DNA of 64,000 nt from assembly GCF_036588685.1 (NCBI RefSeq), contig NC_086386.1, positions 30,256,001 through 30,320,000 of the forward strand, written 5' to 3'. This DNA is from Mytilus trossulus. Taxonomy: Eukaryota. The position numbers were made by a program. Below, in pieces: positions 18,001 to 21,000 of this stretch. How positions within the stretch are numbered: the first letter of the stretch is position 1; each line of letters opens with the position of its first letter.

Positions 18001-21000
18001 AAACTATTAACAATAATCAAAAGGAAAAATTAAAGAAAGGCTAGTCCGTAAAACTTGACAATACCATGTATACTTGATTATATATATCAACCATTGGACC
18101 GAATAAAACACAACAGTCATAGTCCAGATTTAGTACAAATATTTTACGAATAAATGGGTCATAGCCATGGTATCATAGCTTTCTAAACATCGCACTTGTA
18201 AAAACTTGTAAAAGTGTAACAATTGATATGTTTAAAATTGAGGGCATTACAAAACAAAGTAAATAAAAAGAAAGTATGTCCAATCTTTTTAACTGAACCT
18301 GGAACTACGCGAGAAAAATGTTAGAAAACGAAAAACCTTTATGACAAACTTCAACATAGAAAGGACTATCGGTGATTTTACTAAAAATCTCCCATAAACT
18401 GTGGTCAATAGGTTTTAACAATTCTTATTCGATGAATAATGGATTTCTTATCACGTGTATTTTCATAAATTAATAACTTTCATTTGGATCGTAAAAGGTA
18501 TGGTATATAGGATAAAAATAAAAAACAAAAAACAACAAAAAAAAAAAAAGAAAACCAAACAGTCTTTCTAAGGTAATGCCGTACTTGTTTTAAAAGTGAT
18601 GTCGGAATGGAAACATTTAAATTCAATGTTATTATCTTTGAGTCACCAGTCTGTTAAATATAACAATTTTCTTCTTCAACTTTCAAGAATATGAATCTCA
18701 ATATTTTGGTACTCAATGTGAAAATCAATTTGAAGTTAGGCATAAAAAAATGAAGTCGGAATGGGCGTGACTGCTATCTACTATACGTTAGATGGTCCAA
18801 CAATGTAATCACCAATATTAGCAGTCTGACGAAAGGTGAAGAGGAGGGACTAAATCGTAACCATTGGTCAACGAAGATGGACAAAATGAGAAGCAATTCA
18901 AAAAAGGAAACCAACGACTTAATTTTCTTTTACAATAATGAACTACTATCAAATGAAGCAAAGAAACGATTAAAGATCGACAACTACTGGTGAATTGGGT
19001 TTGGGTTCCTGGTTCGTTTTGAATTAATTGTCATAATAATGCCAGGTATTCATCGAACATAAATGTAAGCATCCGCTAATCTTCTGACTCTTTTTTTTAA
19101 CTTTCTCTGGTTTACATTGATAGTTTAGATTCGAGTGAGGAATCATTCTCCAATGGACTATGAATGTATGCATTGTCGTTGATTTCTATCAGATAATTTG
19201 TCATTTCGTTTCATTTGTATTAATTTTGCTGTCTCCTTTGCATGAAACTGATAATTATATGTGTTTATTCATAAAATGATTATATTCCCTCTCACTATGT
19301 AATCGACAAAGATGTTTAAAGTATTGTGGTACTTTAACTAATCGATCAAAGTCCTTGTTTTGAAACGTATTAAGAAAAGTGCTTTGAGTTAATTTACCGA
19401 TATTTTCCCAGTATGCAGTTAGAACTTCGGCCACCCCACAGCGCAAGTACTAAGTGCAAACGGTAATGACATGTAAAGATACGGGCACTGTTAACTAAGG
19501 TAAAGATTTATAACTGATTCTTAAACATGTTAAAAACACAAAAAAATAACTAATCATTGAAAACTGTTTCTAAAAGGTTGGTAAAACAAACAAGATAATT
19601 AAAACAACATCATGGCACTATCAATTCACTTGTTTGTCACTTGGCTCAAGTACTCTTTGTTGGTGTTATTTTAATGTTACGATCCAAAAAACTTTGACAA
19701 CAAACTCGAATGAAAATGAGCTTTCGATCAACATTACAGAATGAAAATTTAATTTATATGTCGATAAAACATTATTGATTTGCAATGATTTTAAAAAAAA
19801 AAAGACTTGCATAAAAAAATTAGTACTGTGTATTAACATGCATTAGTTTACTGTTCTAAATATCATTTAGATTACATGAAACTCCTTTCATATGAATTAA
19901 AAGGATAATCTGAGCATATTTAGTATTTTAAAATATATTCTGAAAAACTTTCAATACAAATAGTTATCAAAAGTACCAGGATTATAATTTTATACTCCAG
20001 ACGCGCGTTTCGTCTACATAAGACTCATCAATGACGCTTAGATCAAAATAATTATAAAGCCAAAAAAAATACAAAGTTGAAGAGCATTTAGGGTCCAAAA
20101 TTCCATAAAGTTGTGCCATATATGGCTACGGTAATCTACTCCTGGGGAAAGAAAATCCTTAGTTTTTCGAAAAATTCAAAGTTTTTTTAAACAGAAAATT
20201 TATAAAAAATGACCATATAATTGATATTCATGTCAACACCAAAGTGCTGACTACTTGGCTGGTGATACCCTCGGGGACGAAACGTCCACCAGCAGTGGCA
20301 TCGACCCAGTGGTGTAAATAGTTATCAAAAGTACCAATATTTTAATAGGATAAGAGGTACTGATTAACTTTATATGTAAATATTAAGATTTTGTATAATT
20401 GTGCACATTTATAGTATATGTGTTGAAAAGAATAAAGTGACATGGACAATAATGTTAAACAATTCTTTATGTGGGCGTACAAACGAATTTTTAAAAAGGC
20501 AATACTATTTCAATTTTATTGAAAGACGTAAACAGTACAATTAACTCCTATAACAATGTTTTCTCATGCACTTGAAATTTCATGAACTGGTTGTGACATC
20601 ATTTAACAAAATTACACATAATACAATAGTTTCGTTTCATTATATAAATACATATTATAATAGGTGCAAACAAGGTTATGTTATATAATAGAATAATACC
20701 TGGGTGAATAACATTTTTGTATGCAGAATATTTAACAAATATGTATAAAATGACTACATGATAATGTGAAACTAATATATGAATAAATTAATAAGGGTGA
20801 AATATTTACACTAACAATAAATGTCCAGATATTTTGAAGCTGAAGCTATCAATTTTTCTAATTCTGTTGGTAAACAAATACATTTTTACCAGTTTGATGA
20901 CAACACGTTGATTAAATTTGTCTCGTATATAAACATTGCACTCAGCATTTTTTTTTTATTATTTTATTAAGTCATTATAGAAACAGATTCAACCTCATTA

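What the first reader, a model, noticed from the sequence alone, without database searches (positions are those of the whole stretch)
19958..20336. Full retrozyme-like monomer: 358-nt non-coding unit with terminal redundancy and a hammerhead ribozyme
Seen: an exact 21-nt direct repeat 358 nt apart brackets a non-coding unit carrying a minimal type I hammerhead on the minus strand. The repeat is part of the element rather than a TSD, because the copies at 28629 and 31025 begin with the same sequence. Established: non-LTR retrozymes are small hammerhead-bearing repeats that yield circular RNAs, are thought to be mobilised by Penelope-like RTs, and have been reported in mussels, so the class itself is not new. 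Inference: this copy was reverse-transcribed once around a circular or multimeric template and overshot by 21 nt, and the Penelope-like RT families in this window are candidate partners. It sits 2.1 kb downstream of the gene A stop codon on the same strand, possibly in the 3' UTR.
Basis: partly seen in the sequence, partly recalled or inferred. Interest (0 to 1): 0.8.

Follow-up and report, generated by a model that had tools for sequence, protein, structure and literature searches.

The report
Mussel hammerhead retrozyme: single decayed copy
This is one ordinary genomic copy of the small hammerhead-ribozyme retroelements (retrozymes) already described in the Mediterranean mussel; it spans just over one unit, and its ribozyme carries a change at a core position.

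Summary
An exact 21-mer sits at 19958-19978 and 20316-20336, 358 nt apart. It brackets a non-coding, 36% GC unit with a type I hammerhead on the minus strand (19994-20037). The window is Mytilus galloprovincialis, where 350-390 bp hammerhead retrozymes that yield circular RNAs are published.

The 21-mer is element sequence, not a target duplication. Two 5'-truncated copies (28622-28789, 31024-31140) end with it, 17 of 21 bases identical in each. All three copies share one 3' end, 42 nt past the ribozyme cut site. The template therefore spanned the cut site and was longer than one unit, so it was a circle or a multimer; the window cannot say which.

- The focal hammerhead scores below Rfam's threshold, reads UUGAUGA (C3 to U) and has a helix I mismatch.
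- With one ribozyme, the locus cannot release a circle itself.
- The RNA is not unusually structured (z = -0.68).
- The Penelope-like RT pieces here are three 5'-truncated Naiad-type fragments. That clade is reported to lack hammerheads, and they share no sequence with the unit.
- 3'UTR membership cannot be decided.

Verdict: a known kind in a known species, of low interest.

The parts
19958..20315 (-). One full 358-nt retrozyme unit (sense = minus strand; 5' at 20315, 3' end at 19958)
   Evidence: Period set by the exact 21-mer repeat. Non-coding, GC 0.36. nhmmer self-match and matches to the two other copies.
19958..19978 (-). 3'-terminal 21-mer of the element (first cDNA bases made if target-primed)
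   Evidence: Exact repeat. Present 17 of 21 in both truncated copies at the same end. The flanks beyond it are unrelated.
20316..20336 (-). Second copy of the 21-mer at the 5' edge: the last 21 nt of a preceding unit (1.06 units in all)
   Evidence: Exact repeat at spacing 358. Similarity drops to 7 of 10 right after it.
19994..20037 (-). Type I hammerhead. Helix I is 6 pairs with one G-A mismatch (+19996). The core reads UUGAUGA (U at position 3 = +20031). Helix II is 3 bp with a 7-nt loop. Then GAAA, and helix III of 2 bp with a GCGC loop. Predicted cut after C17 (+20000), i.e. between +20000 and +19999.
   Evidence: Rfam RF00163, 24.7 bits, below GA 34, full-length alignment. Three-copy alignment.
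28622..28789 (-). 5'-truncated copy (unit positions about 2-168) in an intron of the glutamate-receptor gene, sense orientation. Its hammerhead at 28658-28701 has an intact CUGAAGA core.
   Evidence: blastn 82.9% over 158 nt. nhmmer E 5e-54. RF00163 29.9 bits, E 0.00011 in a 3-kb search. Exon map.
31024..31140 (-). 5'-truncated copy (unit positions about 2-113) in another intron of the same gene, sense orientation. The hammerhead has decayed: the U of the A15.1-U16.1 pair is replaced by A, and helix II has a C-A mismatch.
   Evidence: blastn 83.6% over 110 nt. nhmmer E 3e-35. Only a weak Hammerhead_3 match, 17.3 bits, E 4.3. Alignment.
37771..37898 (+). Weak, inverted match to unit positions 207-334 (the half without the hammerhead); possibly an old fragment of a related repeat
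   Evidence: nhmmer E 0.00071, 14.3 bits. Alignment. No other relatives in the window. Marginal.

Best explanation
This is a genomic copy of the Mytilus galloprovincialis non-LTR retrozyme type: a 358-nt non-coding retroelement whose sense strand (minus here) carries a type I hammerhead. Most likely it was inserted by target-primed reverse transcription. Copying began at a fixed point of the RNA, 42 nt downstream of the ribozyme cut site, ran through one whole unit and stopped 21 nt into the next, giving 379 nt or 1.06 units. The copied stretch crosses the cut site and exceeds one unit, so the template was not a ribozyme-cleaved linear monomer. It was a religated circle or an uncleaved multimer. 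I lean to the circle, roughly 55:45, only because circles are reported as the dominant retrozyme RNA in mussel. The locus is a dead end. With one ribozyme and one cut site it cannot excise a unit-length RNA, and its ribozyme carries C3 to U plus a helix I mismatch. The reverse transcriptase came from elsewhere in the genome, probably a hammerhead-bearing canonical Penelope-like element and not the Naiad fragments in this window. Shown: the anatomy, the shared 3' end, the 5' truncations, the redundancy and the core change. Inferred: target-primed reverse transcription, the nature of the template and the partner.
For: Exact 21-mer at spacing 358, beyond chance in 0 of 30 simulated windows. Full-length Hammerhead_1 alignment on the minus strand, with a better-scoring copy at 28658-28701 (29.9 bits). 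All 3 of 3 clear copies are co-oriented and share the same + left (minus 3') end within about 3 nt. Their other ends differ at about 113, 168 and 379 nt, which is the pattern of 5' truncation. The 21-mer is 17 of 21 identical in each other copy, while the flanks are unrelated. The cut site (+20000/19999) lies 42 nt inside the 3' end. The organism is M. galloprovincialis: one exon is 100% identical to a named glutamate receptor-like protein. PMC7229834 (passages) reports for this species about 5000 type I hammerheads in repeats of about 350-390 bp and abundant circular RNAs. It proposes a model in which a primed circRNA is copied into tandem cDNA, with PLEs as the candidate RT source. It also describes a 2-bp helix III with a tetraloop as typical of invertebrate retrozyme hammerheads. 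The focal copy has 4 private substitutions in 101 aligned columns. At that rate a still-identical 21-mer pair (P about 0.18) and a hit in one of the 13 core bases I counted as invariant (11 in the consensus of PMC7151607, plus the A15.1-U16.1 pair; P about 0.41) are both unremarkable. The core change can therefore post-date insertion.
Against: No tandem array of the unit exists in the window: 0 of 3 copies has two or more units, and tandem arrangement is part of the published definition. The hammerhead scores below Rfam's gathering score in every copy, and the whole-window gathering scan finds nothing. The circular 358-nt RNA is not more stable than shuffles (-73.2 against -69.5 +/- 5.5 kcal/mol, z = -0.68), whereas published retrozyme circles are called highly self-paired. 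The isolated 44-nt motifs do not prefer the hammerhead fold in nearest-neighbour energy (+1.3, +1.4 and -0.2 kcal/mol for the three copies, against minimum free energies of -7.5, -10.8 and -8.0). No target-site duplication was found for any of the 3 copies, so the insertion boundaries rest on similarity alone. The right-hand boundary of the focal copy rests on one locus. I could not compare the unit with the published mussel clones, because supplements are closed and no eukaryotic DNA collection was open.
Confidence: 0.7

Rival explanations
1. Remnant of a DNA-level tandem array. The locus once held two or more units, or was copied from an array by recombination, and deletion or unequal crossing-over left 1.06 units. 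The redundancy would then say nothing about the RNA template.
For: Published retrozymes are tandem arrays that expand and contract. The window holds other collapsed-looking two-copy tandems (10017-10497 and 42762-43044).
Against: The left edge of the focal copy coincides with the shared 3' end of two independent truncated insertions. A random deletion would reach that point only by luck. No trace of further units lies on either side.
Confidence: 0.1
2. 5'-truncated tail (a solo pseudo-LTR) of a longer hammerhead-bearing Penelope-like element that happens to contain an internal 21-nt repeat. The unit would not be a 358-nt element at all.
For: Most PLE insertions are 5'-truncated and keep only the terminal repeat, and retrozymes resemble PLE pLTRs (bioRxiv 10.64898/2026.07.22.740005). 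PLE hammerheads lie in pLTRs (PMC8557442). Only one copy in the window reaches beyond unit position 168.
Against: The repeated 21-mer is exactly the element's 3' terminus, as expected for head-to-tail units and not for a random internal repeat. No minus-strand open frame of 70 aa or more lies between 20337 and 23598. None of the 5 Naiad-type PLE protein queries (P0230, P0210, P0121, P0124, P0232) matches there by tblastn; no canonical-PLE protein was available as a query. The 58 further open frames scanned gave no RT or endonuclease domain.
Confidence: 0.1
3. The 21-mer is a target-site duplication, or a preferred target sequence duplicated on insertion.
For: TSDs of animal retrozymes, when present, are said to be longer than 4 bp (PMC7229834). 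An exact match of the two 21-mers is what a TSD looks like.
Against: Both other copies carry the 21-mer (17 of 21 each) at the same end, at the same divergence as the rest of the element. They have no second copy of it at their other end. Their outer flanks are unrelated.
Confidence: 0.03

Closest known systems
Non-LTR retrozymes of Mytilus galloprovincialis (Cervera and de la Pena 2020, PMC7229834; passages read)
   Same: Same species. Type I hammerhead, repeat size within 350-390 bp (358 here), GC below 45% (36%), non-coding, no LTR features. Helix III of 2 bp with a tetraloop, as described for invertebrate retrozyme ribozymes.
   Different: This locus is 1.06 units and not an array. Its ribozyme core has U at position 3. 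The predicted circle is not unusually self-paired (z -0.68). Sequence identity with the published clones could not be checked because supplements are closed.
Pseudo-LTRs and partial tandems of canonical Penelope-like elements (Penelope/Poseidon, Neptune), which carry hammerheads
   Same: Head-to-tail partial duplication at the 5' side, frequent 5' truncation, no poly(A) tail, a type I hammerhead near the 3' end, and unclear TSDs (PMC8557442; the bioRxiv 2026 preprint).
   Different: No ORF. The unit is 358 nt and not kilobases. The upstream partial copy is only 21 nt. No hammerhead-bearing PLE is present in the window for comparison.
Amphibian satellite 2 / axolotl retrozymes
   Same: [quoted passage not shown] A short helix III with a palindromic loop makes them cleave better as dimers (PMC7229834). 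Here the helix III stretch ACGCGCGU is also self-complementary (alignment).
   Different: A different phylum and no sequence relation was tested. Amphibian copies form very large arrays.
SINE-like non-autonomous retroposons
   Same: Short, non-coding, dispersed, with a fixed 3' end and variable 5' truncation.
   Different: No tRNA, 5S or 7SL head and no A-rich or microsatellite tail. It carries a ribozyme and a head-to-tail redundancy.
Plant LTR retrozymes
   Same: Non-autonomous, hammerhead-bearing, with circular RNA intermediates (PMC7229834).
   Different: Plant elements have type III ribozymes inside LTRs, PBS and PPT sites, 4-bp TSDs, GC above 55% and a size of about 700 bp. None of this applies here.

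Membership tests
Hammerhead ribozyme, type I (Rfam RF00163) | Match to the covariance model at or above the gathering score (34 bits) | tested here: not met
   24.7 bits (focal), 29.9 bits (28658-28701), no Hammerhead_1 hit for 31025. The alignments are full length (model 1-45), so the shortfall comes from helix I and core departures, not truncation.
Hammerhead ribozyme, type I (Rfam RF00163) | Core C3 U4 G5 A6 N7 G8 A9 ... G12 A13 A14, A15.1-U16.1 pair, H17 (consensus as given in PMC7151607) | tested here: inconclusive
   The focal copy meets all positions but one: position 3 is U (+20031). The 28629 copy has the complete core. The 31025 copy lacks U16.1. The 3-copy consensus is complete. That C3 changes cut activity strongly is recalled knowledge, not tested here.
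Hammerhead ribozyme, type I (Rfam RF00163) | Three helices around the core with helix I open (type I topology) | tested here: met
   Helix I is 6 pairs (5 standard plus a G-A mismatch in the focal copy), helix II is 3 bp, helix III is 2 bp with a GCGC loop.
Hammerhead ribozyme, type I (Rfam RF00163) | Self-cleavage | not testable with these tools
   Needs in vitro transcription.
Metazoan non-LTR retrozyme (PMC7229834) | Non-coding unit of about 150-450 bp (mussel 350-390) with low GC | tested here: met
   358 nt, GC 0.36, longest open frame 52 aa.
Metazoan non-LTR retrozyme (PMC7229834) | Head-to-tail tandem arrangement, dimers to multimers, so that two ribozymes flank a unit | tested here: not met
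   1.06 units with one ribozyme at this locus. 0 of 3 copies in the window has two or more units. The genome-wide state is not testable here. The 2026 preprint counts monomers as non-mobile offspring of retrozyme families.
Metazoan non-LTR retrozyme (PMC7229834) | No LTR, PBS or PPT, and no poly(A) tail | tested here: met
   Only the 21-nt redundancy is present. No long terminal repeats and no A-run at the 3' end.
Metazoan non-LTR retrozyme (PMC7229834) | Expressed as a unit-length circular RNA | not testable with these tools
   No transcript data. This locus alone could not produce one.
Metazoan non-LTR retrozyme (PMC7229834) | Highly self-paired RNA | tested here: inconclusive
   Circular MFE -73.2 kcal/mol, 57% of bases paired, z -0.68 against 200 dinucleotide shuffles. 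One decayed copy is a weak test of the family.
Naiad-type Penelope-like element (for the RT fragments named as partners) | N-terminal GIY-YIG endonuclease, CxC linker, DKA motif, C-terminal RT | tested here: inconclusive
   The window fragments 15470-16550(+), 49995-48943(-) and 2619-2290(-) hold only the C-terminal RT part. Their relative P0230 (994 aa; 42-49% identical to the first two, 86% to the third) has GIY-YIG at 129-169 and RVT_1 at 786-848 (both below Pfam cut-offs), CTC at 425, DKA at 552 and YIDD at 838.

The most novel reading that the evidence does not exclude
All three insertions start at the same RNA position, 42 nt past the ribozyme cut site, and the full one runs 21 nt into a second turn. 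This could be a direct genomic footprint of rolling-circle reverse transcription of a religated circular RNA in an animal, with priming at a specific site beside the hammerhead. The hammerhead-plus-tail region would then act as the RT recognition and priming signal as well as a processing signal. A genome-wide census of 3' ends and overshoot lengths could test the circRNA-template model, which so far is only a proposal.
Probability: 0.3. Interest if true: 0.5.

Novelty: already known. Interest (0 to 1): 0.2.

Why it matters
On its own it matters little. Hammerhead retrozymes of this size and their circular RNAs were described in this very species in 2020, and their kinship with Penelope-like elements was argued again in 2026. 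The useful residue is mechanistic and small. Here the insertion ends do not coincide with the ribozyme cut site, the 3' end is fixed, and one copy overshoots a full turn. If that holds across the thousands of genomic copies, it constrains how the unknown reverse transcriptase picks its start on a circular or multimeric template. Two copies also sit in sense orientation inside introns of a glutamate-receptor gene, one with an intact ribozyme core, which is worth a look in transcript data.

Tried and rejected
Rfam at gathering thresholds over the whole window gave nothing. The hammerheads appear only in E-value mode.

A tRNA-derived SINE origin is rejected: no tRNA genes in the window and no small-RNA family match in the unit.

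A second hammerhead of opposite polarity was considered. The + strand at about 20258-20300 reads CUGGUGA...GAAAC inside a CUGGUG/CACCAG hairpin. It fits no hammerhead model at E up to 10, and I could not draw helices II and III for it. I regard it as unexplained.

I looked for sequence shared between the unit and the 500 nt downstream of the three PLE fragments and of the LINE-like RT. This made 8 local alignments, each against 200 shuffles. The shuffles reached the observed score 3, 11, 35, 53, 68, 83, 127 and 133 times of 200. The lowest value (unit + strand against the fragment at 2289-1790) is not significant after 8 tests.

I searched for more or shorter copies. A 21-nt tail pattern with up to 3 mismatches found 3 matches, all known copies. 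nhmmer with a 3-copy profile and with the unit found only the three copies, the redundant 21-mer, one marginal match at 37771-37898 and noise. Blastn of that marginal region found no further relatives.

The TSD search gave, as the longest exact words shared by the two flanks, 8, 7 and 6 nt. None abuts both boundaries, which is chance level in AT-rich DNA.

Pfam scans of 8 open frames of 120 aa or more and of 58 further frames of 75 aa or more found only RVT_1 (7712-8284) and glutamate-receptor domains. No endonuclease domain turned up. Five of the 71 frames of 75 aa or more listed (25931-26164, 26256-26561, 27270-27524, 29731-30021, 39109-39438, all minus strand and overlapping mapped glutamate-receptor exons) were left out of both scans.

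The dimer cofold of the 44-nt motifs did not return a textbook double hammerhead, so I draw nothing from it.

The literature search for C3U effects returned only a core-consensus statement. The size of the C3U defect is recalled, not read.

Not checked:
- Any eukaryotic genome or transcriptome, since none was on offer.
- The collections metagenome contigs and viral contigs, which were closed.
- Genome contigs, which holds prokaryotes only and was not used.
- Supplementary figures S4, S5 and S9 of PMC7229834 (mussel ribozyme families, cloned circles, model). These are closed and would bear directly on whether this unit is the published family.

For the glutamate-receptor gene I searched with one exon only and mapped the named reference protein exon by exon. 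I did not build or search a joined coding sequence. The window is a mussel contig, not human, and it holds no N.
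Full report
WHAT IS THERE. The 21-mer AAATAGTTATCAAAAGTACCA lies at 19958-19978 and again at 20316-20336, 358 nt apart and exact. Right after it the two stretches agree at only 7 of 10 bases. 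A repeat like this is not expected by chance. None of 30 Markov-simulated windows held any 21-mer repeated within 1 kb. In the real window the only other cases lie inside two obvious tandem duplications. The 358-nt unit has 36% GC and no open frame longer than 52 codons in six frames. It has no tRNA-like part.

THE RIBOZYME. Rfam finds nothing in the window at its gathering thresholds. In E-value mode, Hammerhead_1 (type I) aligns over its whole length to 19994-20037 on the minus strand. The score is 24.7 bits against a threshold of 34, with E 0.0019 in a 901-nt search and 0.13 for the whole window.
- Anatomy: helix I of six pairs, the core, helix II of 3 bp with a 7-nt loop, GAAA, and helix III of 2 bp closed by GCGC. 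The cut is predicted after the C at +20000.
- Departures from the three-copy consensus: position 3 of the core is U and not C (+20031), and helix I has a G-A mismatch (+19996).
- C3 is part of the invariant core as given in PMC7151607 (Introduction read). That changing it cripples cleavage is my recollection of the classical mutagenesis and of the C3-G8 pair in the full-length structure.
- A 2-bp helix III with a tetraloop is called typical of invertebrate retrozyme hammerheads in PMC7229834. The stretch ACGCGCGU is self-complementary, as in ribozymes that work better as dimers.
- In nearest-neighbour energy the isolated motifs do not favour the hammerhead fold (+1.3, +1.4 and -0.2 kcal/mol, against minimum free energies of -7.5, -10.8 and -8.0). 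This model ignores tertiary contacts.

THE FAMILY IN THE WINDOW. Blastn, nhmmer and a mismatch-tolerant pattern search all find the same three copies: the full one, 28622-28789 (unit positions about 2-168) and 31024-31140 (about 2-113).
- They are about 83% identical, all in one orientation, and all begin on the + strand at the same point within about 3 nt. Their other ends differ.
- Read on the ribozyme strand, that is a common 3' end with 5' truncation, the usual mark of target-primed reverse transcription.
- The 21-mer is 17 of 21 identical in each of the two shorter copies. The flanks beyond it are unrelated, and neither short copy has a second 21-mer at its far end.
- I found no convincing TSD for any copy.
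- The copy at 28658-28701 has a complete core (CUGAAGA) and the best score, 29.9 bits. The copy at 31025 has lost U16.1.
- One marginal inverted match to the ribozyme-free half lies at 37771-37898 (E 7e-4).

CONTEXT. One exon (28154-28531, minus strand) is 100% identical to a protein named glutamate receptor-like of Mytilus galloprovincialis.
- Mapping that protein exon by exon places the gene on the minus strand from 59104 to 22464, with the TGA stop at 22463-22461. A second paralogue lies further down at 13686-258. I searched exon by exon and did not build or search a joined coding sequence.
- The element lies 2124 nt beyond the stop, on the same strand, between the two paralogues. The two short copies lie in introns of the first gene, in sense orientation.
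- Twelve AATAAA/ATTAAA hexamers lie between the stop and the element. Without transcript data, 3'UTR membership cannot be judged.

WHAT IS KNOWN. PMC7229834 (passages read) reports for this same species about 5000 type I hammerheads, mostly in repeats of about 350-390 bp with low GC. These are expressed as abundant circular RNAs. The paper proposes a model in which a primed circRNA is copied into tandem cDNA, with hammerhead-bearing PLEs as likely helpers. A 2026 preprint (10.64898/2026.07.22.740005; abstract, most of the Results and the Discussion read) argues from vertebrate genomes that such retrozymes derive from PLE pseudo-LTRs. It treats monomers as offspring that may no longer transpose. 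The unit here fits in size, composition, coding status and ribozyme type. It does not fit the tandem criterion at this locus, and its predicted circle is no more stable than shuffled sequence (z -0.68). I could not compare it with the published clones, because supplements are closed and no eukaryotic DNA collection was available.

HOW IT MOST LIKELY AROSE. The insertion's 3' end lies 42 nt beyond the ribozyme cut site, and the copied stretch of 379 nt runs through that site and past a full period. A ribozyme-cleaved linear monomer cannot give this. The template was either a religated circle or an uncleaved multimer, with copying started at a fixed internal position. That much follows from the anatomy.
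- Circle or multimer cannot be decided from one locus. I lean slightly to the circle, only because circles dominate the retrozyme RNA in mussel tissue.
- The focal copy has 4 private substitutions in 101 aligned columns. At that rate, identical 21-mers (P about 0.18) and a hit somewhere in the 13 core bases I counted as invariant (11 in the consensus of PMC7151607, plus the A15.1-U16.1 pair; P about 0.41) are both unremarkable. The C3-to-U change may simply post-date insertion.
- With one ribozyme the locus cannot release a unit-length RNA, so it is a dead-end copy.

THE PROPOSED PARTNERS. The window holds three pieces of Penelope-like RT: 15470-16550(+), 49995-48943(-) and 2619-2290(-). All are C-terminal only, the first is broken by frameshifts, and none has an endonuclease part.
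- A full-length relative, P0230, has an N-terminal GIY-YIG, a CxC motif, DKA and a C-terminal RT. This is the Naiad layout, a clade reported to lack canonical hammerheads (PMC8557442, passages).
- No hammerhead hit lies in or near these fragments. Their downstream sequences share nothing with the unit beyond chance.
- A separate RVT_1-type RT at 7712-10818 is unrelated to them. Scans of 58 further open frames found no other RT or endonuclease.
The real helper, if it is a PLE, is elsewhere in the genome.

VERDICT. It is an ordinary, slightly decayed copy of a retroelement type already published for this species. The only point of some mechanistic interest is the combination of a fixed 3' end away from the cut site with a 21-nt overshoot. 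A genome-wide census could turn that into a test of the circular-template model.

Noticed in passing
window 16607-16671 (+), next to 15470-16550 (+): A SECIS_1-like element (30.9 bits, GA 35, E 0.00046 in a 701-nt search) with the AUGA...AAA...UGAU features. It begins 57 nt after the stop of the truncated Naiad-type PLE RT frame. Selenoprotein-encoding Naiads with a SECIS just after the stop are reported only for two clams and two spiders (PMC8557442), so a mussel family could be a further case. The Sec positions named in that paper lie in parts this fragment lacks. The other two fragments gave no SECIS hit.
   Followed up: partly
window 28658-28701 (-) and 31024-31140 (-): Two retrozyme fragments lie in sense orientation inside introns of the glutamate-receptor gene. 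One has an intact hammerhead core about 150 nt upstream of exon 28504-28139. The other lies about 60 nt from exon 30965-30849. Whether the ribozyme cuts the pre-mRNA is unknown.
   Followed up: partly
window about 20258-20300 (+): A hammerhead-like string of opposite polarity (CUGGUGA...GAAAC inside a CUGGUG/CACCAG hairpin). It shares GACGAAACG with the real ribozyme on the other strand. No hammerhead model matches it at E up to 10. A weak relative at 37771-37898 reads CUGAUGG at the same place. Unexplained.
   Followed up: partly
window 59104-22464 (-) and 13686-258 (-): Two tandem paralogues of an AMPA/kainate-type glutamate-receptor gene lie on the minus strand. The first is near-identical (81-100% per mapped exon) to a named M. 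galloprovincialis protein, the second 60-84% identical over the exons mapped.
   Followed up: partly
window 7712-10818 (+), with 10017-10497: An RVT_1-type reverse transcriptase frame (7712-8284) is followed by further short open frames up to 10818, possibly one broken retroelement. It is unrelated to the PLE fragments. A 239-bp tandem duplication (2.0 copies, 95% identical) lies within that stretch.
   Followed up: no
window 60528-63999: A large satellite array of a 27-bp unit (about 122 copies, 73% matches) runs to the end of the window, upstream of the glutamate-receptor gene.
   Followed up: no
window 4091-4294, 6514-6710, 11347-11548, 42765-43064, 46038-46239: A dispersed repeat of about 200 bp (77-85% identity between copies), present once as a 138-bp x 2.1 tandem at 42762-43044. 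Family not identified.
   Followed up: no
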